This document shows positions 17,628 to 63,972 of a stretch of 64,000 bases of DNA, piece after piece; position 1 is the first letter of the stretch, and each line of letters begins with the position of its first letter. This DNA comes from an uncultured virus (IMG/VR IMGVR_UViG_2897118514_000003) (Duplodnaviria; Heunggongvirae; Uroviricota; Caudoviricetes). The stretch spans positions 1 through 64,000 of IMG/VR virus record IMGVR_UViG_2897118514_000003; one strand, 5' to 3'. A program made the translations under genes and the position numbers. The notes beneath the pieces were generated by a model. The model saw nothing but the letters and a program-made list of their open reading frames with translations. It had not been told where the DNA came from and ran no database searches.

Positions 17628-19948
17628 CCAGTATCCTTAGTTCTCGCATAGTACAAGGTCTTAATTCCTCGATGATGAGCGTAGAGATCTATTCTATTCA
17701 GGTCTCTCGTTGTCATCGTATCTTTCAGGAACAAGGTAAATGAAATTCCTTGATCGACATGCTGCTGAATCGTTGCAATAAGATCAACTACCTTAAACAT
17801 ATCCATGTCATAACCTTCTTTATAAAAGAACCAGTTCTGAGGTGATAAACCTGGCATCGGATAATAAGTCTTACTGTTACCGTAGGTACGTTCTTCAATT
17901 CGCTCCATAATTGGCATTACACCTGCTGTAGATGATTGAACATATGAGATACTTCCCGTAGGTGCAATAGCCTGCCTATACGAGTGATACAGTCCATATT
18001 TCATCACATCTTCTTTAAGCTTCATCCAATCTTCAATATTCGGAATATGCTGATCTCCAAATAGTTTTTTAACCTTTTCATACTGAGGGCTATAATCATT
18101 TGTTATGTACTTTTCGAAATACTCGCCTGATTTATAAGTCGAACCATCAAACTTGTAGTATGTCTCCCCTGTTTCTCGTGCAATTTCCATTGAACGCTGC
18201 AGGGAGTAGAAGTTAACCATCATAAAGTATGTATTAACAAAATCCTTAGCTTCTTCACTTTCATAAGCAATATTATTTTGAGCTAGAAATCCATGGAGGT
18301 TCATCTGCCCTAGACCAATTGATCTCATTAGTGTATTTGCTCTCGCAACAGCTGGAGCATTTACAATGTTTGTTTTCCTTGTGACTGTGGTCAGTGAGTC
18401 AATAGCTATTCTGACTGTTGAAGCAATTGATTGATTACTCATTACATTTACAATGTTCATTGAGCCAAGATTGCAAGAGATATCTAATCCAATTTCATCT
18501 TCTTGATCGTAATCTGTATAAACTGATACCTGTGATGATTGGAGGACTTCAGAACACAAATTAGAAAACTTCACTTTTGAAATATGTTCATTTGGATGCA
18601 CTTTATTTACGTTGTCAGCAAACATGATATAAGGATAGCCAGATTCACTTCTTAGAATGGCCAATTGCTCCAACAACTTTCGAGCATTCCCTTTTGATTT
18701 TCTAACCCTCGGGTTTTCGACAAGCTCATCATACATATCATTGATATCCATCTCATCGAGATACTGCCCGTATTCTTTGTAAACTGAATGAGGATAGAAC
18801 ATGTAATAGTCCTTGTCTTCCCTTGCCAGTTCAATGAACTTATCAGGAACAACCACACCAATGGATAGTGTTTTAACTCGGACATCTTCATCAGCACTTA
18901 TTTTTTTGGTATCAAGGAAGTCTGTAATGTCTGGATGGAATACACTTAGATAAGCCGCTCCTGATCCTTGTCTTTGCAGACCATTCAAACGTGTTCGCTA
19001 AGCACGCCCCGCCATATGGCTGCTTCATGTTACCATGAAGGTTAGACTATATCTTCACCCTCTAAGGGCGCCTCCTGTTTCGACTGCCAATAGCTTGCAG
19101 CCTACGCCTTTCGGCTAGTCGTTGCACGTTCAAGACTTAGTCTTGCTTCGCTCATGATTGTCCCTGTAGGAGTTCCCATGAATTAAAGAGGTTTTCGATC
19201 ACCATTGCTGATGAAAGGGGCCAAATCAACCCATTTGGTCGGCATATCTGAAGGCATTATCTAGAAGTTTCATAACACCTACGACACCTTTAGTCGCATT
19301 CTCTACGTCTTTAATCGCTTCACCTTTGGCTCTTAGTTTGTTTAGATTTAATGCTACTCCTCCACCTAGCTTAGAAAGTTGCATGGAGATATCGATCGCT
19401 CTTGAAATATCATTCAAACTGTCGCCTATTTCAAGTAAGAAGCAGCTCACCATTTCACCTCTTCGCTTACGTCCAGCATTAAGGAAAGTAGGTGTTGCCG
19501 GCTGATACTCTTGTTTCATCATAGTATGTACTTCCTCAACTGCTTTCTCGTAATCCCCATCAGCACAATATAGAGCTACAATTGAGACACGATCCTCGTA
19601 CCTTTCCAGGATCTTTGTTTTATCGTTTGTCTTCAATGCGTAGTCATTGTAGAACTTAAATGCACTCATAAAAGATGGGAATCTGAATTTGTAACTGTAA
19701 GCAATCTTATAAATTGATTTAATCTGTTCAAATGTATATTTGCTTAGGAATTCTTCTTCGTAATAATCATTTTTAATCAGATAATCCAACTTCTCTTTTA
19801 AATCATGGAAAAAGACTGTGTTTTGATTAATGTAGTCAACAAAGTAACTATGTACGGCCTCCTTATCCTTTTGGAATTGATACTTCCCATCTTTCTGAAT
19901 CATGATCTCATTATTGAGCTTGATCCACTTTGGTATTGTGTTTGTCAA
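17597..19948 (-). CDS. nrdE: Class Ib ribonucleotide reductase alpha subunit; exons 19948-19229 and 18976-17597 (699 aa), no intein
   Basis: TTG start after AGGAGG; splicing restores YADQMGQRQGSG; FSNLCSE intact; C-terminal CLSC. Confidence 0.93.
18977..19228 (-). mobile_element. Group I intron (252 nt) in nrdE, no ORF
   Basis: Exon ends GGU, intron ends in G before CAA AGA; shares GATATAGTCT core with the nrdF intron; length equals the recalled SPbeta bnrdE intron. Confidence 0.9.
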
Positions 19949-39748: not shown

Positions 39749-40129
39749 TCATTTATTAATTTTATTTTTATTCTTATTATTTCTATAATTAGACTTGCTG
39801 CTAAACTTACAATCTCTAATACCAAGTAGTTTGTTTAGCTCTATGTATCTCTTTTTAGGAAAATTCCAAGGCTCTGGATCGCCTTTAATGTTTCTTACTT
39901 TAATGATCGTATTAAGTCTTACAGTAATCTTGAGATTTCCATATGAATATGTCTTAGAAATAAAACCCCTCTCAACTCCTTGAGGTCTGAATTCCTTCAC
40001 CAACATTACATTCCTTGTTAATTTTCTTCTAGCCTGGTCTTCTTCGATGTCATAATTCCTTTTAACATCATTTCTATAGGCTTCGATTGCAGCTGGTTTA
40101 ATTTTCAATATCTTCAATTCCTTTTTCAC
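39749..40129 (-). CDS. yorE: Basic hypothetical protein
   Basis: 126 aa; first gene after the repeat-linked promoter. Confidence 0.65.
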   Translation of the reverse strand: MKKELKILKIKPAAIEAYRNDVKRNYDIEEDQARRKLTRNVMLVKEFRPQGVERGFISKTYSYGNLKITVRLNTIIKVRNIKGDPEPWNFPKKRYIELNKLLGIRDCKFSSKSNYRNNKNKNKINK

Positions 40130-40163
40130 TTTACGACCTCCTTTCTCTCTGTGGGATATTCTT

Positions 40164-40213
40164 ATCTTACATCACCCTCACATTATCGTCAATAGTAATT
40201 TTATTTTTATTCT
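40164..40213 (-). promoter_or_regulatory. Sigma-A promoter of the replication operon with upstream repeat element
   Basis: AGAATAAAAATAAAATTACTA-TTGACG-N17-TAAGAT. Confidence 0.75.
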
Positions 40214-40262
40214 AAATAATTTTTAAGAGAAGTTCCGTTCTGAACGGAACACCTGGGCAAAG

Positions 40263-40889
40263 CTATTCATATTTCTTTTTAAGCTCTTTAAAGGTTACTT
40301 TCTTCAAATCGTAATCATCCATTGCAGATGAAGTAGCATTGTCGGTATCCAAAGCCTCTTGTTTATAAGTCTCAAGACTTCCCTTTGGTTCAATAGCCAA
40401 ATCAGACAATTGCTTTACGTTTTTATATATCTCGAGCAGATAATCATAATTATCATCGAATTCAGAAGGATGATTCTTCATCAATTTAATCTGCTTTTCA
40501 ATTGTCTCTTGAGTATCTTCTAAATCAGAAATCTTACCTTCATCTTCATAACCTGCGTAAAGCTGAACTAATGCATCATTAAAATCGCTAACATATGTTC
40601 CATTTACTTTATGTAGGTCATTAAAAATAACATCATGCCAAGTTGTCTCAACTTCGTTAATTATTTCTTCTGAACTTGCACCTAAAGAAGTCATATCAGT
40701 GACAAGACTTTCTTCTTTCTTAGAATACGCTTCTAGCTGCTCAAGTTTTTTGTTCTTTTTGTAAACTTGATAGCCATAGATTCCTCCAATTATAAGTGCA
40801 ACCACCGCACAAACTGAAACAATCCAAATAACTTTTTTAGTCTTCTTTGGCTTTTCTAAAGGTAACTCCCCTGTAGCCTCATGATCCAT
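40263..40889 (-). CDS. Single-pass membrane protein, moron-like
   Basis: 208 aa from ATG 40889; own TTGTTA-N17-TAATAT promoter and GTTCCGTTC/GAACGGAAC terminator. Confidence 0.7.
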   Translation of the reverse strand: MDHEATGELPLEKPKKTKKVIWIVSVCAVVALIIGGIYGYQVYKKNKKLEQLEAYSKKEESLVTDMTSLGASSEEIINEVETTWHDVIFNDLHKVNGTYVSDFNDALVQLYAGYEDEGKISDLEDTQETIEKQIKLMKNHPSEFDDNYDYLLEIYKNVKQLSDLAIEPKGSLETYKQEALDTDNATSSAMDDYDLKKVTFKELKKKYE

Positions 40890-41011
40890 GTTGTTTATCC
40901 CCCTATAGTAAAAAAGAATCATTAATTCAATAACATATTACCATGAAGGGAAAAACTTAACAATTCCTTTTGAAATTAAAATAAAATGATAATTTTATTG
41001 GGTTATAGGTA

Positions 41012-41157
41012 AAGAGCCACCTAACGGCAGCTCTTCGGGTTGGTCAGCCTCCGACTCTAACTTCCATAGTAGCTCATCCTCCAATAATATTAATCACTTT
41101 TTTAACCTCCAAAAACCATTTCACTACTCTCCCTTAGGATTAAGGAGAATTATATCA
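41012..41157 (-). other. Mini transcription unit with three chained micro-ORFs MVFGG (41119-41102), MINIIGG (41097-41074), MEVRVGG (41067-41044)
   Basis: Extended -10 TGATATAAT (41157-41149), an RBS before each ORF, terminator-like hairpin AAGAGCTGCC-GTTA-GGTGGCTCTT (41035-41012). Confidence 0.6.
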
Positions 41158-41171
41158 TGGATTTATAATAT

Positions 41172-41552
41172 TTAAACAATTTCACTCCATAACCATACAT
41201 CCATTGTTTGCAATGTAAATCCGTCGGGTAGATGCTTCATTTTCACATTTACATTGTATCTTCTGCCTGTTGTTTTATGTACAATAGCTAGTTCTTCACC
41301 ATTAAAGAAACGTACAATGGCCTCATCAAATTCAATAGGTTGATTAACCACATAACCTTCCTTTAAAGCTCTAATAAACAAATAAGGATCATTTTTATAC
41401 AGTTCATAAAGTATGTTCGCATATTGTTCGTTTTTGTCTCTAAGTAGTTCAAAATTAATCAACGGTATGTATAAGTCTTTGTCTGATAAATTCAATTTGT
41501 TTCTAAAGTATTTAATTGCTTCATCTTGCTCTTTAGAAATGATGTTTGGCAT
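41172..41552 (-). CDS. yorC: Hypothetical protein
   Basis: 126 aa; synteny. Confidence 0.7.
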   Translation of the reverse strand: MPNIISKEQDEAIKYFRNKLNLSDKDLYIPLINFELLRDKNEQYANILYELYKNDPYLFIRALKEGYVVNQPIEFDEAIVRFFNGEELAIVHKTTGRRYNVNVKMKHLPDGFTLQTMDVWLWSEIV

Positions 41553-41647
41553 TTTTCTAATCTCCTCTTTTATCGTTAATTTTTTATTGCTGTTAAGCTC
41601 CTTTTGTTTTCAATTAGGATATAATCAACATAACAAGAAATGGAAGG

Positions 41648-42172
41648 ATGCTTAGCATGCGAACAAAAACAACATTGTTTATTTTTTTGCTTTTCACTCT
41701 AATAATAACTGGATGTGCTTCTGAATCTGAAAAGCTCGCAGAACAAAAAGAAAAAGAAAAGTATGAGGAAACCCTAGATAAAGCATTTCCTAATGGTACT
41801 GATACTCCAACTATTGTAGAAGAGCCAAGTGTTGAAACTAAAAATGATGATTTAGAATCAGAGTCTAGTGAAGAGTTCGACAATGTCATGTTAGAACCAG
41901 TAGGGAATATGGATGATTGGCCATCCCTTTCCTCTGAAGAAAAGAAACAAATAATTGAGGATTCAATTAAATATGAACAATATCAACAGAATCAACAAAA
42001 TGTTGAAATTGAAATAGTAGGTTCAACTGATGATTTCATTAAAGTTATTGATGATCGATACCAGGAAATTGATAACTTAGAAGGATTTGAAAGAACCCGG
42101 ATGTTAGCTTCATCTATTTCCGCTCAAGTTGGAATAATGGGTCATCAAGAACATCTTATAAAATTTCGTTAG
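41648..42172 (+). CDS. Acidic lipoprotein, counter-oriented moron
   Basis: Lipobox IITGC; TATAAT upstream; long terminator hairpin about 42188-42229. Confidence 0.75.
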   Translation: MLSMRTKTTLFIFLLFTLIITGCASESEKLAEQKEKEKYEETLDKAFPNGTDTPTIVEEPSVETKNDDLESESSEEFDNVMLEPVGNMDDWPSLSSEEKKQIIEDSIKYEQYQQNQQNVEIEIVGSTDDFIKVIDDRYQEIDNLEGFERTRMLASSISAQVGIMGHQEHLIKFR

Positions 42173-42652: not shown

Positions 42653-42924
42653 TTATTGAGATTCTTTTCTTATCCATTTTCTAACCTTCACTTCTTTTAA
42701 CTCCACTTCATAACAATCAACTTGATCTTCAAATTCCCAAGGGCTTTCATACTGGTTTTCAGTTGCGCCTTTGCTATAGAAAGTTTCAAAAAAGCGACCC
42801 TGATTGAGAACACAATTCTATAGTGAATGCTCCACCTAGACGTGTCAGTGATCTCTTCTAAAATTGAGGATTCCGGCAGTCCCAATTCATTTACCATGTA
42901 ATCTTTGTCTAATTTAATTTTCAT
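42653..42924 (-). pseudogene. Phage protein gene with a 1-nt frameshift near 42805
   Basis: ...SRWSIHYRIVFS continues in another frame as QGRFFETFYSKGATENQYESPWE...RKESQ, ending at the TAA of palindrome 42640. Confidence 0.65.
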
Positions 42925-43801
42925 TTAAAATAACCCCTCTTCCTTTGCAGCATTTGCATTCGACTAAAGGCTCGTTAATTTTAGCCATCAGATCATCTAA
43001 AAATTTCTTAATATTACTCTTTAAATCTTCAACATCTTTTCCACTAAACGGTTCTACAATTGGATAACTCTGATAGGCTTCAGGTGCAACCTTGTAAATC
43101 TCAACCTCTCGCTTTGTTTGAAATCTTTTTTCAAGTTTAGGCTTTCTCCGTTTGTACATTGCATTAAGATCAACTACATACTCGTGAGGCATGTAAAGTT
43201 CCAAAACCTTTACCACAGTAAAACAGAAATCATAATCACTTGTGATTCTTGCAAATTTAGGGTTTATATTGGCTTTAATATGGTTTCTAATAATTTTATA
43301 GCTTTCCGCCCGAGACAAGTAACACGGCTTTGTTTCAAGAAGCATTGGATGCGTTTGAATTCTATCCAGTAGGTTATATTTCAAGTTGAAATTTTGACTT
43401 TGAATCTTAAGTTCCCCGTTAACTTCTTCAATAATGTTCATTTCAAACTCAATCTTTTGATTCTGTTGTGGAACTTCTTCAAATTTCAATTCATATAGAC
43501 CCTTCACTTCATAGTATTCATTGTCTTCACCTATGTAAGAAGCATAAATTACTTTTGGAGTTAATTCAGATTCCTGGAACCCTTCTTTCAATTCATATCT
43601 ATGATTAATTTTTTTAGCCGGCATTTGCTTTTCAATAACACTTGGCTCCTTTTTGAGCTTAAACCAGTCTGACTTATACGTTGCAGTTGCTGGTTTACCA
43701 TCAAAAAGCAATCCTTTTAATTGACTATGAAAGTATGTCTCGCCTTGAATGTTGTCAGACACCAAAAAACAGTTATTTGTTTTAATACCAATTAGCTTCA
43801 A
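42914..43801 (-). CDS. YoqZ-like protein with C-terminal CxxCxGxG
   Basis: 295 aa; ARITSDYDFCF; synteny. Confidence 0.7.
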   Translation of the reverse strand: MKLIGIKTNNCFLVSDNIQGETYFHSQLKGLLFDGKPATATYKSDWFKLKKEPSVIEKQMPAKKINHRYELKEGFQESELTPKVIYASYIGEDNEYYEVKGLYELKFEEVPQQNQKIEFEMNIIEEVNGELKIQSQNFNLKYNLLDRIQTHPMLLETKPCYLSRAESYKIIRNHIKANINPKFARITSDYDFCFTVVKVLELYMPHEYVVDLNAMYKRRKPKLEKRFQTKREVEIYKVAPEAYQSYPIVEPFSGKDVEDLKSNIKKFLDDLMAKINEPLVECKCCKGRGVILNEN

Positions 43802-44225: not shown

Positions 44226-45038
44226 TTGTTTGTATCGCCAATGCTATTGCATTCGATAAAGGAACCATTTGAGGACGAGAGCTATATTACCGAGCTGAAG
44301 TTTGATGGAATTAGACTGATCCTCTCCAAGTTTAATGATCAGATAAAGCTTTATACTCGTCACAACAATGAAGTAACAAGCAAGTTCCCAGAACTGTTGG
44401 ATCTTGATATACCCAATGGAACTGTTTTAGACGGTGAAATCATTGTAGCTACCCCAGGCGGTGCCCCTGATTTCGAAGCAGTCATGGAACGCTTTATGTC
44501 TAAGAAATCAGCTCATAAGGTGGTTTACTGTGTATTCGATGTAGTTTATATTGATGGACATTCAATCGCTAATAAGCCGCTCACTGAACGTAAGAGCATG
44601 CTTTCAGACCTAAACCTTGACCACGATAATGTCTTTGTGATCGAAGGCCTGCAAGGAAACGGATTAGCTTACTTCAATCTGGCCAAAGAAAAGAATTTAG
44701 AGGGAATCGTACTAAAGAAAGCTAACTCCCCTTATGAAATCAATAAACGTTCCCATAGCTGGCTGAAAGTGATTAATTATGAATACACAGATGTGCTTAT
44801 CACCGGCTACACCAAAGAGGATATAAAATTTCTTCTATCTTATCCTGATGGTACTGCAGCTGGATTTATGGAATTCATGCCGAACGCAGAACGAAGTAAA
44901 TTCCACTCTATGAAACATGTAAAGTCTGAAACTGACGAATATGTATTTGTAGAACCGATCTTATGTAAGGTTAAACACAGATTTAAGACTAAGCATGGCA
45001 AACTCCGCATACCTTCATTTGAATCCTGGAGAGTCTAA
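44226..45038 (+). CDS. ligB: ATP-dependent DNA ligase
   Basis: 270 aa; ELKFDGIR, LDGE, VFDV, EGIVLK, WLKV. Confidence 0.93.
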   Translation: MFVSPMLLHSIKEPFEDESYITELKFDGIRLILSKFNDQIKLYTRHNNEVTSKFPELLDLDIPNGTVLDGEIIVATPGGAPDFEAVMERFMSKKSAHKVVYCVFDVVYIDGHSIANKPLTERKSMLSDLNLDHDNVFVIEGLQGNGLAYFNLAKEKNLEGIVLKKANSPYEINKRSHSWLKVINYEYTDVLITGYTKEDIKFLLSYPDGTAAGFMEFMPNAERSKFHSMKHVKSETDEYVFVEPILCKVKHRFKTKHGKLRIPSFESWRV

Positions 45039-51906: not shown

Positions 51907-54105
51907 TCATTTGGCTTCCAATACCACAGTTTCTTTTTCAAAATCATTTCTCAATTTGATAATGGAAGCTGATTTTAAATATCCTCTGTCTTTTGTCTTA
52001 GCCCATGCAAAAAATCTATTGTGCAAAGGAGTGTAAAGGCTTCCTGTGTTAACCATATGCTCATGTTTGTTGCTGATCTTATGCTTTACTCCCCTCATTT
52101 GTTTCCAAAAGTTATAGTAAGGGAGCTTAAGTTTTGTCATGAAGCCAGCAGCATCTTCAATTACATAACCCTCTTCCTCAATTGAAAAATCTTGTGACAC
52201 GTCCAGATACCATCTATAGAAATCTGTCCAGTTACTAAACTCCGCAACTTGTTTTTTGCACTCAATGGATAAACACTCTGCAGTAGCTTTCACTTCACTG
52301 TAAGGGAGTTTTTCATATGACATCTGTCTTTTTACTATGTCTAAGAGGACTAGTTTGTCTTGATTGTATTCAATGATATGTGGATCTTTTTCTGGAAGTA
52401 TTACTTCAAAAACGAATGAAACCTTATTTAGCTTCAGATAATATTTAATGGCATTTACCGTAAATTCATCAAAGGTCTTGAAGAACAACTCCTCGACCCA
52501 TTTCGCATGGTCATTTGATAATTGAGATGTAAAGGATTTAGAAGTGAATACCAACTGATCTGACAAAGAGTCATACCCCACAGTCCCTAAATATCCATTT
52601 GCCTTATCGAACACTGTTACAGGAAACTTCATTGTATCTACGAGATGATGCATTCTTGTTTCAGATCGTTCTCCAATGTTAAAAAATTTATCATAGCTTC
52701 TACTTACAATTTCATTATTCTGGATGTTAATAAACAAACCCCTTGCCTTAATATTTGTTTCATCCCACTTTTTCTTTCTAAAGGCTTGCTTTGTAAAATT
52801 AAATGATGAGATATTGTTTGGCATCTTGTTCTCTTGGACATATTCATGATCACGTAAGTGGGAAACCAAATCATCAATTGTTCCAACAGTTACACTATTA
52901 CTCTGCACATCACTTGAACTTTGTTTAAAAACTTTATTCTTCACCTCATGCGTTTCAATTCCGTTCTCAGACAGTGTAACGACTCTAAGATGACCTCCTC
53001 TTTCCACTTGCCCTTCCAGGTTATAAGATCTTTCTGCTGCTAACACAGGTAAACGGTACATGTTTCTATGTCCATGAATCTGTACAACATTTTGGCCAGC
53101 CGTATTTTTTGCAAATTCATAATCAATATCGTCTGAATAATCTCCAACTCCATTGATGAATTGTGTTGTTGCGGTCATCAAGAGATTTTCAGGTACGGTT
53201 GAAACTCCTCCATGAGTTACAATGTATGTAGTGTTTTTATATGTAAAGTAAGCTAACTGATGAAACTTCCTGGCCAACTGTCTAATGTCTTTTTTATCAA
53301 TGTTGGATTGTTCGATTTCTGGTTTAGTTTTGTTGTTAAATGTGCTGCTAGGTGTTTCTTCATCATTCCCATACATATTGATATATCTATCGTGATTTCC
53401 TTCCAGAATAATCACATTTTTATTATCTTTAATTTTGATCATGAATTCTAATAGCTGTGCATTTTCAATACCTCTGTCGATAAGATCTCCTACAAAGATG
53501 TATAGTTCATTTTCATTTAAATCACCGTTTAGGTACTCTTGAAGCACAGTATTGCACCCATGAACATCTCCGAAAATATGGATCTTTTTATAATCGTCAA
53601 AACATCTCGGCTTATAAGTCATCGTGTTTTCAAACTCATCTGGTTTTAGAACAGTTACCCAAGATGGCACTTTTTCTGTTGTCATTCTTTCATAAATATT
53701 AAGAATACTGCTTTCAGGAACATGTTTATGTTCAGCCCTCATTTTATTTCTTTTTAAGATTCTCCGAACATCAACATCAGAAAAATCAACTACATATACA
53801 CGGTATCTATATTTTTGAGCTAGTGGCTTATATCTTGAAATCGCACTTTGCTTTGAATGAGTTGCATCGACAATTGTGAATTCACCGCGATTCATCCTGT
53901 CTTCAAGCAATTTCATTAATAAATCCCACACCTTGTTGTCGTGTTTTGGAGAGATTTCATATTTTCCACTTTTGTTTAACACAGGTGACTGAAACAGTAA
54001 TCTAATATTGTCTGCAGAAAGAGTGTATTGCTCAAGTCCATTTTCCTTGATCCAAGTTGATTTCCCCACTCCTGGGCACCCTCTTAATAACACTAATGTT
54101 CTCAT
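51907..54105 (-). CDS. Trifunctional RNA repair enzyme: polynucleotide kinase, metallophosphoesterase, RNA ligase
   Basis: GCPGVGKST; GDVHG, GDLIDRG, GNHD, HGH; KANG, EEGYV, KLK ligase motifs. Confidence 0.85.
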   Translation of the reverse strand: MRTLVLLRGCPGVGKSTWIKENGLEQYTLSADNIRLLFQSPVLNKSGKYEISPKHDNKVWDLLMKLLEDRMNRGEFTIVDATHSKQSAISRYKPLAQKYRYRVYVVDFSDVDVRRILKRNKMRAEHKHVPESSILNIYERMTTEKVPSWVTVLKPDEFENTMTYKPRCFDDYKKIHIFGDVHGCNTVLQEYLNGDLNENELYIFVGDLIDRGIENAQLLEFMIKIKDNKNVIILEGNHDRYINMYGNDEETPSSTFNNKTKPEIEQSNIDKKDIRQLARKFHQLAYFTYKNTTYIVTHGGVSTVPENLLMTATTQFINGVGDYSDDIDYEFAKNTAGQNVVQIHGHRNMYRLPVLAAERSYNLEGQVERGGHLRVVTLSENGIETHEVKNKVFKQSSSDVQSNSVTVGTIDDLVSHLRDHEYVQENKMPNNISSFNFTKQAFRKKKWDETNIKARGLFINIQNNEIVSRSYDKFFNIGERSETRMHHLVDTMKFPVTVFDKANGYLGTVGYDSLSDQLVFTSKSFTSQLSNDHAKWVEELFFKTFDEFTVNAIKYYLKLNKVSFVFEVILPEKDPHIIEYNQDKLVLLDIVKRQMSYEKLPYSEVKATAECLSIECKKQVAEFSNWTDFYRWYLDVSQDFSIEEEGYVIEDAAGFMTKLKLPYYNFWKQMRGVKHKISNKHEHMVNTGSLYTPLHNRFFAWAKTKDRGYLKSASIIKLRNDFEKETVVLEAK

Positions 54106-58075: not shown

Positions 58076-59065
<990 letters not shown>

Positions 59066-60412
59066 CTAACGAACATCAATTTCATCATAGAAAACTTTTT
59101 TCAGTTTTTTCTTCATAGCAGCATTTAATTGTTCTTCATAATTTCTGCTGCTTAACTCCTTGAATGTCTTACCTTTATCAAAATCAACCTGCTGTAGTAT
59201 CGTTGCTAGTTTAGCTAGTGGTGTGCCATTCTCTTGCATTTTTTTGGCCAAATAAATGTATCCATAAAATACAGCATTATAGTTAATGTATGATCTGTTT
59301 CTTGACTCGCTAAGATCATCTTCAAGGAAATCATCTGGAAAAGCATAAAAAAGCTCAGCAAAGAAGTCCCTTAAATACTTGGACAATTGAATAGCGTCTC
59401 TCCGTGAATTGATCTCAAAAGCATCGTCAATTGCTTCAGAAAGTGTATAATAAGTAACCAAGAATGGACTACTCATACCAATTTCACTTTGTACACTAAT
59501 TTTGTCTTTGAGTTCACTATTATATTTAAGTTGCTCAACAATAGTGGAAGAATAGCGTTTTTGACCAAGTTCTTCAATCCTTGATTTCTCAACAGGATTT
59601 ATTGTATTCATTTGGGCAAAATGACGTTTTGCTTTTTCTTCAGTATAATTTAAGATATTCAAAATAAAGGTTTGATCTAATTCAGGAGCTTCAGTAATAG
59701 CTTTAACAACTCCAGATATTCTATGGTAACCATCTAGAACATCAACTAATGTACCCTTAGTAACAGTTAAGCTTAGGTCGCTTGGATTGTACTCAATTTC
59801 TTCATCCTCATCTGATGTGCCAAACCGTGCATTAAATGTAAACATAGACACGATTAAGTCGCCCTTTTTAAAAAGTTCTTTAATCTCTTCAACTGATTTA
59901 GGATTAGTCTTTGGCACAGGTATTAAGCTTCCCTTAATGAATCTGCCTTCCCGTTGAGTATTATAGTTGTATTGTAGTATTGAGCTATTATATAGTTCAC
60001 TTAATTCTTTCGCAGTAATTGAAGTCACATAATTATCTTCATTTATTTTTATTACGTTTTTAAATGTATAAGGAAGTGTTAGAACCTCTTCACCGGCAAA
60101 AATTCTTCCGCCCTCTAACTCCTTAGCCAGCCTTGGTGGAAAATAACTCAAAGGGTCTAAAGCGGCTACGCCAGTAAGTTTGTGTAGTTCTTTAGAGAAA
60201 ATATAAACTTCCTTTTCATTCAAGCGTTGAATGTTATTATCATTGTTATTCAAAATTTCTTGTACATAACCAGGCAGCGTTTTATACTGCGCTCCCATGA
60301 TTGCTTTTAATTCCTTTACTTTTCTGGAATCATGTTTAATATCAGATGCAACTTCTTCTATTTTATTTTTAAGCTTTAAAAGCTTATCTGTTGTCAACAG
60401 ATCCTGAACCAC
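59066..60412 (-). CDS. yopQ: ParB/DndB-like repressor-operon protein (YopQ/SroE)
   Basis: 448 aa; QR, LDGYHR motifs; synteny. Confidence 0.8.
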   Translation of the reverse strand: MVQDLLTTDKLLKLKNKIEEVASDIKHDSRKVKELKAIMGAQYKTLPGYVQEILNNNDNNIQRLNEKEVYIFSKELHKLTGVAALDPLSYFPPRLAKELEGGRIFAGEEVLTLPYTFKNVIKINEDNYVTSITAKELSELYNSSILQYNYNTQREGRFIKGSLIPVPKTNPKSVEEIKELFKKGDLIVSMFTFNARFGTSDEDEEIEYNPSDLSLTVTKGTLVDVLDGYHRISGVVKAITEAPELDQTFILNILNYTEEKAKRHFAQMNTINPVEKSRIEELGQKRYSSTIVEQLKYNSELKDKISVQSEIGMSSPFLVTYYTLSEAIDDAFEINSRRDAIQLSKYLRDFFAELFYAFPDDFLEDDLSESRNRSYINYNAVFYGYIYLAKKMQENGTPLAKLATILQQVDFDKGKTFKELSSRNYEEQLNAAMKKKLKKVFYDEIDVR

Positions 60413-60496: not shown

Positions 60497-61567
60497 TTAT
60501 TTTAATTCTAAAAATTTTTTGAGCTTTTTTAGAGTGGAAACATCACAATCTAAAAAGAACTGTCTAAACTGGTCTAATGTAACAGTATCCAGGAAATCAA
60601 TATCTATATCTTGATCAATTATAACACCAGGATCTTGAGAATAATCTCTTTCCTTATTTAGATAATGATCATTTAGCACATTGATGTTTTTATGTCCTGA
60701 AAATGCTGCCACCTTTTTAATGTCTCCGCTTACATTATAAGAAAAATTAGTGGCTGTATTACGTAAACTGTGTGGCCTAAGATTTCTTTCCTGTGGAATA
60801 TTTAACACTCTGCAAACTCTGTGCCACATATCATTAATTGAGTCTACAGTTAATTTATGAAAGATCAGCTCATGCTCACCATACTCATTCTTGAGTGTTA
60901 ACAACTCCTCATAAAAGGAGCTAGAAATACCTACTGGTCTCGCTTTCTTCTGTTTAGTCTTCTTGAAATTGACTAAGTAACAATCGTGCTTCGATGAATA
61001 CGTTATGTCTTCCCATTTTACTCGTAAGACTTCTGATTTTCTTGCTCCTGTGCGTACACTAAATAAAATAAAGAGCTTTTTCATTAACCTGTTCTGTCTC
61101 TCATGGATAAATGCAGCTTCTGCAAACTCTTCAGCTTCAGGAATCCCCTCAAATGAACCAGCTGGATTCTTCTCTGTCGGCAATGGTCTAAAATTAAAAA
61201 CGCTTGATTCACAGTCGTGTTCTGACTCCAAGGATTTAATTAAACTTTTCAGTGCTGCGATTTTATTATTAATCGTAGCATTTGTATTATTTTTATTTTT
61301 AGCCAAATAAGTCCTATAATCCATTAAATCATTCTTTTTAATTATTACATCTTCTTCAGTTAAATATTCAATATCCTTACCAACTTGATAATTAAAGAAT
61401 TCTCTAATATGCCTTTCATAGGTGGTTCTAGTATTAGACTTTTCAATAAATGCTGATTTGTCATCCCTATTTCTCAAATCTAATTCATCAAACCATCTAT
61501 TTATGTCATTAAAAATGGAGTAATCCCTAACAGATGGTGTTTGCTTTTTCACTTCCAAGGTTTCCAC
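60497..61567 (-). CDS. yopP: Tyrosine recombinase-family protein (YopP/SroD) with a complete catalytic set
   Basis: TGARKSE, KTK, PHSLR, SGH, HY. Confidence 0.85.
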   Translation of the reverse strand: METLEVKKQTPSVRDYSIFNDINRWFDELDLRNRDDKSAFIEKSNTRTTYERHIREFFNYQVGKDIEYLTEEDVIIKKNDLMDYRTYLAKNKNNTNATINNKIAALKSLIKSLESEHDCESSVFNFRPLPTEKNPAGSFEGIPEAEEFAEAAFIHERQNRLMKKLFILFSVRTGARKSEVLRVKWEDITYSSKHDCYLVNFKKTKQKKARPVGISSSFYEELLTLKNEYGEHELIFHKLTVDSINDMWHRVCRVLNIPQERNLRPHSLRNTATNFSYNVSGDIKKVAAFSGHKNINVLNDHYLNKERDYSQDPGVIIDQDIDIDFLDTVTLDQFRQFFLDCDVSTLKKLKKFLELK

Positions 61568-62661: not shown

Positions 62662-62787
62662 TTACGCCCCACGACTAGCAGAGGCTACTGTAACATCTCC
62701 ACTTGCAGTTTCAACAGATTGTTGACCACTTACGAAACCAACAGCTAATGCAAGTAAAATAACAAGACCGAAGTAAATTTTCTTCAT
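62662..62787 (-). CDS. aimP: Arbitrium pro-peptide AimP, 41 aa, predicted mature peptide SASRGA; not in ORF track
   Basis: MKKIYFGLVILLALAVGFVSGQQSVETASGDVTVASASRGA; RBS AGGAGGTGAG. Confidence 0.93.
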   Translation of the reverse strand: MKKIYFGLVILLALAVGFVSGQQSVETASGDVTVASASRGA

Positions 62788-62817
62788 TTTCTCACCTCCT
62801 TTCAAGGATGTCAACAT

Positions 62818-63972
62818 TTAGAGTGAAATTAAATTCAATATTTCATCTGTATATCCACGTTTTTTAAGTTCAATAAGAGGCAAATTTAAACAAAGTTTAT
62901 CGCCGGATTTTTTGAACTTCTTTATGCTTTCATGAAAGAAGGAGACATCATCATACAGTAGACCTTTAACATGATTTAGAAATCCTAAGTCATCATCCAA
63001 AACATTCAATTTCTCGATTTTTTCTATAATTGATGCTGCTTTCTCTAGTTCCTTCATGTTGACTAAATAATAGGCAACCTCAATCATATCCGGTATCTCG
63101 TTTGACTGAAAATCAATCCATTTATTATCTTTTGCCCAAACATTATTAAGAAAGCAAAGAGCTAGCTCTAATTTGTAGACGTGATGAGGATTTTCTTTTG
63201 CGTATTCCATCCCCTTTTCATAACATAATTTAGCTTCTTCATAATCTTCAAATATAAATGTGTTTCCATATGTCAAATAACCAAATACAATTAATCTATT
63301 GTTATTTGTACTTTCAATAACTTTTTGGCAATGAATCCTGGTATCTTCTAATTCGTAGTCATTCAAGGATATATTGGCTTTTAAAAGTTCAATTCGGCCA
63401 TAATAACATTCTTTAATAAATCCATCAGGTAACTCTTCTATATCTAAAAATTGCGAAGTGCTTTTCATTAAACCGAATTCACCAATTTTCAGATATTCGT
63501 ACATAATTAATATGTTTGAAAATAAAAACATTTCAGGGGTTTTTATTCTGAATTTACCCGTTTCTCTTATAGCATCATTTAACGTAATTTCACTTTTATT
63601 TAATCTTCTATGTATAGAGTAAATCTGACCCCATTCACGGCTTATTGAATTAGTTGATTCACAAAGATTTTTAATTAACTGGTCAGTAAGCTCATCCCAC
63701 TGATTTAAATCGGAATATTCAACCGAGTGTCTTGCACATTTTTTGTTAGGGTCTAATTCTAAGAAGTATTCACTTAATAGCTGTTTTTCATTATCAGGAA
63801 ACAAGCTTTTTACGATGTTTATTAAACCTTCTATGTTTTCCATTTCTTTTTCTGGGGTGTTCACAAACTTATAAAAACCATTTACTTTTTCATAACCGGC
63901 CAATTTAGCAAGTCTAGCTGCAAGCTGATTATCTTTTTCGCATTCGTTCTTAATCAACTGTTTTAATTTCAA
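62818..63972 (-). CDS. aimR: Arbitrium receptor AimR (HTH plus TPR)
   Basis: 384 aa upstream of aimP; C-terminal FKKSGDK motif. Confidence 0.93.
   Translation of the reverse strand: MKLKQLIKNECEKDNQLAARLAKLAGYEKVNGFYKFVNTPEKEMENIEGLINIVKSLFPDNEKQLLSEYFLELDPNKKCARHSVEYSDLNQWDELTDQLIKNLCESTNSISREWGQIYSIHRRLNKSEITLNDAIRETGKFRIKTPEMFLFSNILIMYEYLKIGEFGLMKSTSQFLDIEELPDGFIKECYYGRIELLKANISLNDYELEDTRIHCQKVIESTNNNRLIVFGYLTYGNTFIFEDYEEAKLCYEKGMEYAKENPHHVYKLELALCFLNNVWAKDNKWIDFQSNEIPDMIEVAYYLVNMKELEKAASIIEKIEKLNVLDDDLGFLNHVKGLLYDDVSFFHESIKKFKKSGDKLCLNLPLIELKKRGYTDEILNLISL

What the first reader, a model, noticed from the sequence alone, without database searches (positions are those of the whole stretch)
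41012..41157. Self-contained mini-operon of three chained micro-peptides all ending in Gly-Gly
Seen on the minus strand, in order: extended -10 TGATATAAT; a hairpin TCTCCTTA-ATCC-TAAGGGAGA covering the first RBS; ATG GTT TTT GGA GGT TAA (MVFGG); GTG ATT AAT ATT ATT GGA GGA TGA (MINIIGG); ATG GAA GTT AGA GTC GGA GGC TGA (MEVRVGG); then a GC-rich terminator-like hairpin and a junction palindrome (40982). Each GGAGG that encodes Gly-Gly doubles as the RBS of the next ORF, and it falls in frame before a stop all three times. Established: Phr pentapeptides have a basic second residue (PhrI DRVGA), and RRNPP/arbitrium signals are short Gly-rich C-terminal peptides. Inference: these could be leaderless cytoplasmic mimics of Rap/AimR-type signals (VRVGG resembles DRVGA) used to manipulate the host or co-resident mobile elements. 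Alternatively the unit is a GGA-rich sRNA sponge for CsrA or ribosomes.
Basis: partly seen in the sequence, partly recalled or inferred. Interest (0 to 1): 0.78.

Follow-up and report, generated by a model that had tools for sequence, protein, structure and literature searches.

The report
Two conserved seven-codon phage genes
A tiny self-contained unit in SPbeta-like Bacillus prophages carries two genes of only seven or eight codons, each ending in Gly-Gly, and they evolve like real protein-coding genes, which puts them among the shortest genes known; what they do is unknown.

Summary
The window is a phi3T-like (SPbeta-like) prophage. The unit sits directly after the yorC homologue, at a spot where related phages carry other cargo.

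Comparison with relatives splits the three micro-ORFs:
- ORF1 (MVFGG) is lineage-specific. It is intact in 4 of 22 distinct copies. Elsewhere it is frame-shifted, has no start codon, or is absent.
- ORF2 (MINIIGG) and ORF3 (MEVRVGG) are intact in every copy found, including a second phage clade (YorC 75-78% identical) whose flanks no longer align.

Between the clades, the changes in ORF2 and ORF3 look like coding evolution:
- The start changes from GTG to ATG and the stop from TGA to TAA.
- One whole codon is inserted.
- Six of 7 fourfold-degenerate sites vary, against 4 of 32 other sense positions (p = 4e-4).
- The proposed frame gives 8 synonymous to 3 non-synonymous codon columns. The five control frames give at most 4 to 5.

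No Rfam family matches, and predicted folding is ordinary.

Best reading (0.55): a leaderless two-gene micro-operon making cytoplasmic peptides. Their target is unknown. The PhrI resemblance holds as a sequence match (RVG, with Arg at -4) but was not tested functionally. Transcript ends and translation are not shown.

The parts
41172..41552 (-). yorC homologue (126 aa, function unknown). The unit always follows it directly, and the -35-like hexamer overlaps its stop codon.
   Evidence: ORF list. phi3T_132/yorC annotation in phi3T and SPBc2. phrog_20815 at E = 1.2e-84. No Pfam family.
41149..41176 (-). Sigma-A-type promoter-like site: TTTAAA, 16-nt spacer, TG-extended TATAAT.
   Evidence: Scan gives 10 of 12 matches with TG. 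TGATATAAT is invariant in the clade-1 alignments. Clade 2 has TGGTATAAT at the matching place. The start site is not mapped.
41128..41148 (-). Inverted repeat (8 pairs, one bulge), clade-1 only. It is either an RNA hairpin in read-through RNA from yorC or a DNA operator at the start site.
   Evidence: 97.5% of cells are paired over 16 sequences. Pair 5-16 occurs as C-G (3), U-G (11) and U-A (1). It does not beat shuffles. It is deleted in one copy (L018) and absent in clade 2.
41102..41119 (-). ORF1 (MVFGG), lineage-specific. Its GGAGG (41110-41106) is the Shine-Dalgarno site of ORF-A.
   Evidence: MVFGG is found in 4 of 22 distinct copies. 11 read MVLGV(K/E)(K/R) after a 2-nt difference. 5 have no ATG. 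The 2 clade-2 copies lack the ORF (alignments).
41074..41097 (-). The GGAGG at 41082-41078 is the Shine-Dalgarno site of ORF-B.
   Evidence: Intact in all copies found. Clade 2 reads ATG TC(A/C) ATC AAT TCT ATT GGA GGC TGA (MSINSIGG).
41044..41067 (-).
   Evidence: Intact in all copies. The variants are GAA/GGA, GTT/GTA, GTC/GTG, GGC/GGT and stop TGA/TAA. The last five residues, VRVGG, never change.
41012..41035 (-). Closing hairpin (10 pairs, GTTA loop): the terminator or what remains of one.
   Evidence: 90% of cells are paired. Pair 121-142 occurs as A-U (2), G-U (6) and G-C (8). Two G-U pairs in the stem would be mismatches on the other strand. The clade-2 counterpart is scored as a terminator with a T-run. 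No T-run in the window.
40980..40999 (-). AT palindrome AATAAAAT / TATC / ATTTTATT. It marks the cassette junction and is not part of the unit.
   Evidence: SPBc2 and SPR lack the unit but keep this palindrome in front of the yorE upstream block.

Best explanation
This is a free-standing micro-operon carried as cargo by SPbeta-like prophages.

Layout: a TG-extended -10 promoter at the end of yorC starts a short RNA of about 105-135 nt. A Shine-Dalgarno site loads ribosomes on ORF-A, which has 7 codons here (MINIIGG) and 8 in the second clade (MSINSIGG). The two Gly codons of ORF-A spell GGAGG, which is the Shine-Dalgarno site for ORF-B (MEVRVGG or MGVRVGG) 7-10 nt further on. A hairpin then closes the unit.

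Products: two leaderless cytoplasmic peptides that share a hydrophobic-Gly-Gly carboxyl end. Selection acts on their amino-acid sequence. The peptides themselves, rather than the RNA, are therefore the likely active parts, probably as small ligands or inhibitors of a host, phage or rival-element protein.

ORF1 of the window is a recent lineage-specific addition whose conserved role is to supply the Shine-Dalgarno site of ORF-A.

Shown: the anatomy, the conservation and the coding-type substitution pattern.
Inferred: transcription from this promoter, translation, and action as free peptides.
Unknown: the target.
For: 1. Cassette behaviour.
- 20 of 24 phage records with a yorC match carry the unit. 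SPBc2 (two records), SPR and SPbetaL1 have other cargo at the same spot.
- 21 of 50 YorC loci in IMG/VR carry it.
- The gene that follows differs by lineage: a phi3T_133-like gene with its own promoter, the yorE block, or a 127-aa gene.

2. Conservation across clades.
- Five clade-2 contigs (YorC 75-78% identical) keep only ORF-A, ORF-B and the hairpin.
- Their leader, inter-ORF spacer (6 nt versus 3 nt) and tail are different.

3. Coding signature.
- Start GTG to ATG, stop TGA to TAA, and one in-frame codon inserted.
- Synonymous variants: TCA/TCC, ATT/ATC, GGA/GGG, GGA/GGC, GTT/GTA, GTC/GTG, GGC/GGT.
- Only I/S and E/G change the peptide.
- 6 of 7 fourfold sites vary against 4 of 32 other sense positions, p = 4e-4. 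Third positions vary at 7 of 13 against 3 of 26 for first plus second positions, p = 0.008 (counts read).
- Frame control: 8 synonymous to 3 non-synonymous codon columns in the proposed frame, one of the 3 being GTG/ATG at the start. The other five frames give 2:8, 2:7, 1:10, 4:5 and 3:7.

4. Constraint. The ORF-A to ORF-B core varies at 5 of 54 columns. Third codon positions of neighbouring yorC vary at 30 of 95 in the same 10 sequences, p = 0.0013.

5. The last Gly codon of ORF-A changes between GGA and GGC, which I recall are read by different tRNAs. What is kept is the amino acid, not the codon.

6. Not a structured RNA. No Rfam match in the element. Fold z-scores are -0.55, -1.0 and -0.56.

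7. Strand. The G-U pairs in the closing hairpin fit only the minus-strand RNA.
Against: - No direct evidence of a discrete transcript or of translation. RNA-library contigs of three studies cover the region, but contigs are flat and show no ends. The one Ribo-seq run laid had no reads on the stretch, which is no test.
- The diversity is small: 8 distinct ORF-A/ORF-B haplotypes in two clades. The statistics rest on about 10 variable sites.
- Gly-Gly codons and a Shine-Dalgarno-like GGAGG cannot be told apart, because GGN GGN always contains GGNGG.
- GGAGG is kept at the end of ORF-B although no ORF follows it. This hints at some selection on the nucleotides as well.
- Genes of 7-8 codons with a function as free peptides are very rare.
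- No partner gene travels with the unit.
- In the window the closing hairpin lacks a T-run. The RNA may therefore run on, so the unit is not certainly self-contained.
Confidence: 0.55

Rival explanations
1. Cis-acting leader peptides. Translation of the two micro-ORFs, possibly with ribosome stalling set by the nascent peptide, decides whether the hairpin behind ORF-B forms. It thereby sets read-through into whatever gene follows (ribosome-mediated attenuation).
For: - Short ORFs directly in front of a hairpin. In clade 2 this is a scored terminator.
- A 127-aa gene follows 45-50 nt later, and the scan lists no promoter between.
- RNAalifold's consensus pairs the ORF-A stop / ORF-B start region (GAGCUA, AUGGAAGU) with both arms of the hairpin. 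This structure excludes the hairpin, like an antiterminator.
- In clade 1 only 7-8 nt separate the ORF-B stop from the hairpin.
- Regulatory nascent peptides are also conserved at the amino-acid level (general knowledge, recalled).
Against: - The gene behind the unit differs by lineage. In the window it has its own promoter-like site. In other phages the yorE promoter block follows.
- The distance from stop to hairpin is 15 nt in clade 2 against 7-8 nt in clade 1, so occlusion by a terminating ribosome is not conserved.
- The alternative pairing shows 0 compensatory changes in 33 predicted pairs.
- The clade-1 hairpins lack a T-run.
Confidence: 0.2
2. A non-coding small RNA whose G-rich Shine-Dalgarno-like motifs are the working parts. 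It would act as a sponge or decoy for 30S subunits, CsrA or C-rich host sRNAs. The micro-ORFs would be by-products.
For: - Three GGAGG lie within 70 nt, the only such cluster in the genome.
- GG[AG]GG-N-T[AG]A occurs three times here, out of 9 on the strand.
- GGAGG is kept at the end of ORF-B with no ORF behind it.
- Promoter plus hairpin is the usual sRNA gene layout.
Against: - Variable sites fall at fourfold-degenerate positions of one frame (p = 4e-4). Start and stop codons are swapped for other start and stop codons, and the indel is a whole codon.
- Motif 1 is GGGGG in most clade-1 copies and missing in clade 2.
- The middle base of the Shine-Dalgarno site in ORF-A varies (A/G).
- Duplex energies with host RoxS and FsrA are no better than shuffles. 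The fraction of shuffles at least as good is 0.94, 0.35, 0.76 and 0.38.
- No complement longer than 13 nt exists in the phage genome.
- No Rfam match, and ordinary folding energy.
Confidence: 0.12
3. No function of its own. The unit would be a remnant of promoter, ribosome-binding sites and gene starts left by repeated cargo exchange at this hot spot, conserved only because the phages are close relatives.
For: - The site is a recombination hot spot with many alternative cargos.
- All clade-1 copies are at least about 85% identical overall.
- Conservation of the core is similar to that of the neighbouring coding sequence rather than far above it.
Against: - The core varies at 5 of 54 columns against 30 of 95 at yorC third positions (p = 0.0013).
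- The segments around it carry indels and vary at 12 of 15 and 15-17 of 35 columns.
- The two ORFs and the hairpin survive in clade 2 while everything around them has changed.
Confidence: 0.08

Closest known systems
Phr and AimP signal peptides of RRNPP systems (Rap-Phr, arbitrium)
   Same: - The active forms are 5-6-residue peptides that act on cytoplasmic receptors.
- ORF-B's invariant VRVGG has Arg at -4 from the carboxyl end. According to the passages I read in PMC3601965, that position is basic in Phr penta- and hexapeptides.
- VRVGG shares RVG with the RapI inhibitors DRVGA and ADRVGA tested in that paper.
- The phage carries both an arbitrium module and a Rap-Phr module.
   Different: - There is no signal sequence, no pro-peptide and no adjacent receptor gene. 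The ORFs are the whole 7-8 codons.
- The products would keep an N-terminal Met and one or two extra residues.
- ORF-A has Ile or Ser, not a basic residue, at -4.
- The phage's own AimP ends in SASRGA, and its own pro-Phr is a secreted precursor.
Microcin C precursor gene mccA (a seven-codon gene; recalled, not looked up here)
   Same: It is a real, translated gene of seven codons with its own ribosome-binding site. This shows that genes of this size can be functional.
   Different: As I recall, MccA ends in Asn and is adenylated by a ThiF-like MccB encoded next to it. Here the peptides end in Gly-Gly, and none of the 9 neighbouring proteins scanned has such a domain.
Minigenes of phage lambda (bar) and synthetic minigenes that cause peptidyl-tRNA drop-off
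   Same: Both are phage-borne Shine-Dalgarno-start-few-codons-stop units. The start of the abstract of PMC2490762 (search listing only) describes 3-8-codon minigenes that sequester tRNA.
   Different: That effect depends on the codon and tRNA, not on the peptide. Here the last codon switches between Gly codons (GGA/GGC, GGC/GGT) while the amino acids are kept. No drop-off or toxicity was tested.
Leader-peptide attenuators of Gram-positive bacteria (cat, erm, bmrCD or vmlR type; recalled)
   Same: Very short conserved ORFs with strong ribosome-binding sites lie in front of a hairpin. Amino-acid-level conservation is expected if the nascent peptide stalls the ribosome.
   Different: There is no fixed regulated gene behind the unit. 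The geometry from stop codon to hairpin is not conserved. The alternative pairing has no covariation support.
CsrA/RsmA-titrating small RNAs
   Same: Both have several GGA-containing motifs in a short RNA with its own promoter and hairpin.
   Different: At most 2-3 GGA motifs are kept. Motif 1 is GGGGG in most clade-1 copies and absent in clade 2. The motifs are not predicted to sit in hairpin loops. As far as I recall, no such sponge RNA has been described for Bacillus CsrA.

Membership tests
RRNPP signal peptide (Phr / AimP) | Made as a 30-60-residue precursor with an N-terminal secretion signal | tested here: not met
   The ORFs are 7-8 codons from start to stop. For comparison, the phage's own AimP-like ORF has 51 residues and its pro-Phr about 60, both with hydrophobic N-terminal parts.
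RRNPP signal peptide (Phr / AimP) | Encoded next to its TPR receptor gene | tested here: not met
   AimR lies at 62818-63972, about 21 kb away, with its own AimP. Rap lies at about 120.3 kb of the genome. None of the 9 neighbours scanned is a TPR receptor.
RRNPP signal peptide (Phr / AimP) | Basic residue at -4 from the carboxyl end (Phr rule, PMC3601965 passages) | tested here: inconclusive
   ORF-B has Arg at -4 in all 8 haplotypes. ORF-A has Ile or Ser there.
RRNPP signal peptide (Phr / AimP) | Binds and switches a Rap/AimR receptor | not testable with these tools
   The peptides are far below the 30-residue size that the complex tool asks for, so no job was sent.
Microcin C-type heptapeptide gene | C-terminal Asn and an adjacent ThiF-like adenylating enzyme (recalled definition) | tested here: not met
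   The peptides end in Gly-Gly. No such domain is present in the 9 proteins between 37762 and 43801.
Drop-off minigene (lambda bar type) | Shine-Dalgarno site, start, a few codons, stop | tested here: met
   GGAGG lies 8 and 10 nt before the GTG and ATG. The ORFs have 7 codons.
Drop-off minigene (lambda bar type) | Effect depends on the codon/tRNA, with no constraint on the peptide | tested here: not met
   Synonymous codon switches are tolerated while amino acids are kept. 8 synonymous to 3 non-synonymous columns in frame, against at most 4 to 5 in the control frames.
Leader-peptide transcription attenuator | Short ORF followed by an intrinsic terminator | tested here: inconclusive
   Clade 2 has a stem plus T-run scored as a terminator. 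The window and the rest of clade 1 have the hairpin but no T-run.
Leader-peptide transcription attenuator | Mutually exclusive antiterminator pairing supported by covariation | tested here: inconclusive
   An alternative pairing is predicted, but 0 of 33 pairs show compensatory change.
Leader-peptide transcription attenuator | A fixed downstream gene in the same transcription unit | tested here: not met
   Three different downstream arrangements are found. The window's next gene has its own promoter-like site.
Known RNA family (Rfam 15) | Score at or above a family's gathering threshold | tested here: not met
   No match overlaps the element at E up to 10 within 40000-42000. The only gathering-level hit in the whole window is a group I intron elsewhere. 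No tRNA or tmRNA.
CsrA-sponge sRNA | Several conserved GGA motifs presented in hairpin loops | tested here: not met
   The GGA of motif 1 is lost in most clade-1 copies, and motif 1 is absent in clade 2. The motifs are not in predicted loops, and fold z-scores are ordinary.

The most novel reading that the evidence does not exclude
The two peptides are leaderless mimics of imported quorum signals, made inside the cell. ORF-B's invariant VRVGG, with Arg at -4 and the RVG shared with PhrI, would occupy the peptide pocket of RapI of ICEBs1 or of another Rap-type receptor from within. ORF-A would do the same for a second receptor. The prophage could thereby silence the quorum circuit of a rival mobile element or of the host without any secretion-import loop.

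A second bold variant: the shared hydrophobic-Gly-Gly carboxyl ends copy the tails of ubiquitin-like proteins and jam enzymes of defence systems that handle such tails.
Probability: 0.12. Interest if true: 0.9.

Novelty: new variant of a known kind. Interest (0 to 1): 0.66.

Why it matters
Gene finders and phage annotations ignore ORFs of this size. All annotated records fetched here leave this stretch unannotated.

If the two 7-8-codon ORFs are translated and act as free peptides, they would be among the shortest functional genes known. They would also be a new type of phage cargo. They sit at a hot spot that in sister phages holds a candidate defence gene, 1.8 kb from the anti-Gabija gene gad1.

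The system is easy to test, because phi3T and Bacillus subtilis 168 are standard laboratory strains.

The case also shows that comparison between clades can give a coding signature for ORFs far below the reach of protein searches.

Tried and rejected
- **Rfam, tRNA and tmRNA scans.** Nothing in the element.
- **Longer ORF across the element on either strand.** The longest stop-to-stop frame is 60 codons on the plus strand and has no start codon. The indels of 2, 6 and 9 nt among relatives break every long frame.
- **Trans-antisense target in the phage genome.** No match longer than 13 nt, E at least 0.2.
- **Sponge for host RoxS or FsrA.** Duplex energies are within the shuffle range. The method is crude because duplex length was not limited.
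- **Covariation support for the two clade-1 hairpins.** The covariation score was reached by 106 of 500 shuffles, so it is not significant. Only one pair has changes on both sides.
- **Search of 91 species genomes of the host family with the 161-nt element.** One real match (the genome that holds L029). The other 6 hits are 21-46 nt fragments at E 9e-4 to 6e-3.
- **Degenerate pattern scans for more diverged copies.** They returned the same 21 viral contigs plus 2 metagenome contigs, with no new variant. The alignment-based YorC search added 8 loci, none with the unit.
- **RNA evidence.** Contigs from three RNA libraries cover the stretch but show no ends. The Ribo-seq raw run had 0 reads on the stretch, which is no test.
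- **YorC structure.** Mean pLDDT was 51 with a 14-row alignment, too poor for a fold search, so none was run.
- **Clade-2 cassette against the phage collection.** No match.
- **Literature.** No paper mentions the peptides or an RNA at this place. Searches. Passages read: 10.1101/2021.11.22.469490 and PMC8270828. Supplements of these papers were not opened and could hold transcript tables.
- **Complex prediction with a Rap protein.** Not sent, because the peptides are far below the size the tool asks for.
Full report
**1. What is in the sequence**

- TGATATAAT at 41157-41149.
- An imperfect inverted repeat, TCTCCTTA / ATCC / TAAGGGAGA, at 41148-41128.
- ORF1 ATG GTT TTT GGA GGT TAA (41119-41102).
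- ORF2 GTG ATT AAT ATT ATT GGA GGA TGA (41097-41074).
- ORF3 ATG GAA GTT AGA GTC GGA GGC TGA (41067-41044).
- A 10-pair hairpin, AAGAGCTGCC / GTTA / GGTGGCTCTT (41035-41012).
- An AT palindrome at 40999-40980.

The GGAGG in ORF1 lies 8 nt before the GTG of ORF2. The GGAGG in ORF2 lies 10 nt before the ATG of ORF3.

The consensus scan reports TTTAAA-16-TATAAT with a TG extension, 10 of 12 matches, and no terminator by its T-run rule.

Chance was checked three ways:
- A triple of GGAGG within 70 nt is unique in the 124-kb genome. It would arise in 0.217 of random placements, so it is weak alone.
- The longer motif GG[AG]GG-N-T[AG]A occurs 9 times on the strand, 3 of them here.
- Of 23 GGAGG-led micro-ORFs of 10 codons or fewer on both strands, only these two lie within 100 nt of each other.

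**2. Context**

- The window is the first 64 kb of a 124,254-bp provirus record.
- Around the element it is 97% identical to Bacillus phage phi3T, and it matches 24 Spbetavirus records.
- The element lies between the yorC homologue (41172-41552) and a phi3T_133-like gene of 208 codons (40263-40889).
- yorE, yorF and the Sak4-like yorG follow downstream. The anti-Gabija gene gad1 lies at 42914-43801.
- None of the fetched annotated phage records lists any feature in this stretch.

**3. A movable cassette at a cargo hot spot**

- 20 of the 24 phage records carry the element directly after yorC.
- SPBc2 (two records) has yorD there, SPR has a gene on the other strand, and SPbetaL1 has a large gene.
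- SPBc2 and SPR keep the AT palindrome in front of the yorE upstream block. The palindrome therefore marks the junction and is not part of the unit.
- In IMG/VR, 21 of 50 YorC loci carry the unit. The others hold at least six other inserts or none.
- One alternative insert is a KAP-type P-loop protein that matches the candidate defence family PDC-S49 at E = 2e-21.
- Among one genome each of 91 species of the host family, only one holds the element.

**4. ORF1 is not conserved**

Among 22 distinct copies (alignments):
- 4 have MVFGG.
- 11 read MVLGV(K/E)(K/R), because the stretch is 2 nt shorter. Some of these have a 6-nt insertion in front.
- 5 have no ATG.
- The 2 distinct clade-2 forms have no ORF1 and no inverted repeat.

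What is kept in clade 1 is the G-rich motif GG(A/G)GG at the right distance before ORF2. ORF1 therefore serves as the ribosome-binding site of ORF2.

**5. ORF2 and ORF3 behave like genes**

The YorC-based search does not depend on the element's sequence. It found a second clade (YorC 75-78% identical) in which five contigs carry a diverged unit directly after yorC. Its parts are:
- TGGTATAAT, then a 24-nt leader containing AAAGGAG.
- ATG TC(A/C) ATC AAT TCT ATT GGA GGC TGA (MSINSIGG).
- The spacer GTC.
- ATG GGA GTT AGA GTG GGA GGC TAA (MGVRVGG).
- After 15 nt, GAGTTGC / TATTTAA / GCGGCTC followed by TTCTTTT.

The scan calls this last element a terminator: 1 found, against a shuffle mean of 0.0. 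MAFFT aligns the two clades only from ORF-A to the hairpin.

Over the 8 distinct ORF-A/ORF-B haplotypes, the changes are:
- Start GTG/ATG and stop TGA/TAA.
- One inserted codon.
- Seven synonymous sites: TCA/TCC, ATT/ATC, GGA/GGG, GGA/GGC, GTT/GTA, GTC/GTG, GGC/GGT.
- Two amino-acid changes: I/S and E/G.

Statistics (counts read):
- Fourfold-degenerate sites vary at 6 of 7, other sense positions at 4 of 32 (Fisher one-sided p = 4e-4).
- Third positions vary at 7 of 13, first plus second positions at 3 of 26 (p = 0.008).

As a control, the same haplotypes were read in all six frames:

| Frame | Synonymous : non-synonymous codon columns |
|---|---|
| Proposed (+0) | 8 : 3 (one of the 3 is the start-codon swap) |
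| +1 | 2 : 8 |
| +2 | 2 : 7 |
| -0 | 1 : 10 |
| -1 | 4 : 5 |
| -2 | 3 : 7 |

The haplotypes used were found by blastn or through YorC, not by the degenerate patterns, so the N positions of my later patterns do not bias these counts.

Within clade 1, the ORF-A to ORF-B core varies at 5 of 54 columns. Third positions of yorC vary at 30 of 95 in the same 10 sequences (p = 0.0013). The segments before ORF-A and after the hairpin vary at 15 of 35 and 12 of 15 columns and carry indels.

**6. RNA features**

- No Rfam family matches the element, even at E up to 10, and there is no tRNA or tmRNA.
- The two clade-1 hairpins are paired in 93% of cells, against 43-66% when the partner is slid. One pair runs A-U, G-U, G-C. 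The covariation score is reached by 106 of 500 shuffles, so the support is only suggestive.
- The closing hairpin contains two G-U pairs in essentially all copies (16 of 16 and 15 of 16), and again in clade 2. These would be mismatches in an RNA from the other strand, so the RNA is read from the minus strand.
- The presumed transcripts fold no better than shuffles, with z of -0.55, -1.0 and -0.56. That fits a small mRNA better than a structured RNA.
- The inverted repeat at 41148-41128 begins directly after the -10 box. An RNA started 6-9 nt downstream would lack its 5' arm.
  - It may therefore belong to read-through RNA from yorC, or act as an operator.
  - It is missing in clade 2 and deleted in one clade-1 copy.

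**7. Expression**

Contigs of three RNA libraries from three studies cover the whole stretch:
- X1: one 3,374-nt contig.
- X5: contigs that meet at 40948-40964.
- X13: an 855-nt contig over 40421-41274.

Contigs cannot show ends, strand or level. A Ribo-seq raw run had no read on the stretch, which is no test. Transcription from the unit's own promoter, and translation, are therefore inferred and not shown.

**8. Other ideas tested**

- No complement longer than 13 nt exists in the phage genome.
- Host RoxS and FsrA, found with Rfam models, pair no better than with shuffled versions of the element.
- No long ORF on either strand is conserved.
- The YorC model was too poor to use, with pLDDT 51.
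- The phage has its own arbitrium pair: AimR at 62818-63972 and an AimP-like ORF ending in SASRGA.
- It also has a Rap with a secreted pro-Phr at about 120.3 kb. Neither signal resembles the micro-peptides.
- ORF-B's invariant VRVGG has Arg at -4 and shares RVG with DRVGA/ADRVGA, which inhibit RapI in vitro. Position -4 is stated to be basic in Phr peptides (passages of PMC3601965). This is a lead, not a test.

**9. How it most likely works**

Best reading (0.55): a two-gene micro-operon.
- A constitutive-looking promoter gives a short mRNA.
- Ribosomes start at ORF-A.
- Its Gly-Gly codons form the ribosome-binding site for ORF-B, so the two are translationally chained.
- A hairpin ends the unit.

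The products are two leaderless peptides with hydrophobic-Gly-Gly ends. The amino acids are kept while codons drift, even between Gly codons that (as I recall) are read by different tRNAs. The peptide is therefore the likely active part, and a codon-specific minigene effect is unlikely.

Rivals:
- Leader-peptide attenuation of read-through (0.20). It is favoured by the clade-2 terminator and by an alternative pairing predicted. It is weakened by the changing downstream gene and geometry.
- A G-rich decoy RNA (0.12).
- No function (0.08).

**10. Novelty**

- I found nothing in print on this unit. The searches were made; the passages read are. Supplements were not opened.
- Genes of this size are known only as rare cases: a seven-codon microcin precursor, minigenes and leader peptides.
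- This is therefore a new variant of a known kind, with an open and testable function.

Noticed in passing
window 19023-19238 (-): Group I catalytic intron (Rfam RF00028, 91.3 bits, E = 4e-22). It is the only gathering-level RNA family hit in the window.
   Followed up: no
window 42914-43801 (-): Full-length Gad1 anti-Gabija gene (Pfam PF25705, E = 1e-147), 1.8 kb upstream of the unit.
   Followed up: partly
window 62662-63972 (-): Arbitrium module. AimR lies at 62818-63972 (PF22871, E = 3e-87). It is followed by a 51-codon AimP-like ORF whose last six residues are SASRGA.
   Followed up: partly
L137 1486-2800 (= G000 about 120.3-121.6 kb, outside the window): A Rap protein of 379 codons (RapH_N, E = 7e-28). 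An overlapping small ORF has a hydrophobic N-terminal part, as in a pro-Phr.
   Followed up: partly
site directly after yorC; L004 3130-3700, L010 1630-2280, L011 1630-3135, L063 1128-1778, L045, L066, L071-L074: This site is a cargo hot spot, with at least seven alternative inserts. They include yorD (XkdW family) in SPBc2 and a KAP-type P-loop protein matching the candidate defence family PDC-S49 (E = 2e-21) in L063; SPbetaL1 has the same sequence at the start of its insert.
   Followed up: partly
window 41074-41124 (-): In the window/phi3T type only, the ORF-A frame stays open upstream to a GTG at 41124-41122. That would give a 16-residue form ending in the same INIIGG. The B. rugosus copy has a 12-residue form from a TTG.
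   Followed up: partly
L003 about 1840-1930 and the equivalent in L005-L009 (yorE upstream block): Two direct copies of ACAAAGATAAAAAATAT-like sequence flank a strong promoter-like site (TAGACA, then TATAAT) in front of yorE. It looks like an operator pair.
   Followed up: no
window 51907-54105 (-) and 44226-45038 (+): A 732-codon protein combines a kinase-like P-loop, a metallophosphatase and a T4-type RNA ligase domain, which suggests an RNA repair enzyme. A separate ATP-dependent DNA/RNA ligase-like gene lies on the other strand.
   Followed up: no
window 59066-60412 (-): A 448-codon protein with a DndB-like domain (E = 3e-11), next to two tyrosine recombinase-type genes at 58076-59047 and 60497-61567.
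   Followed up: no
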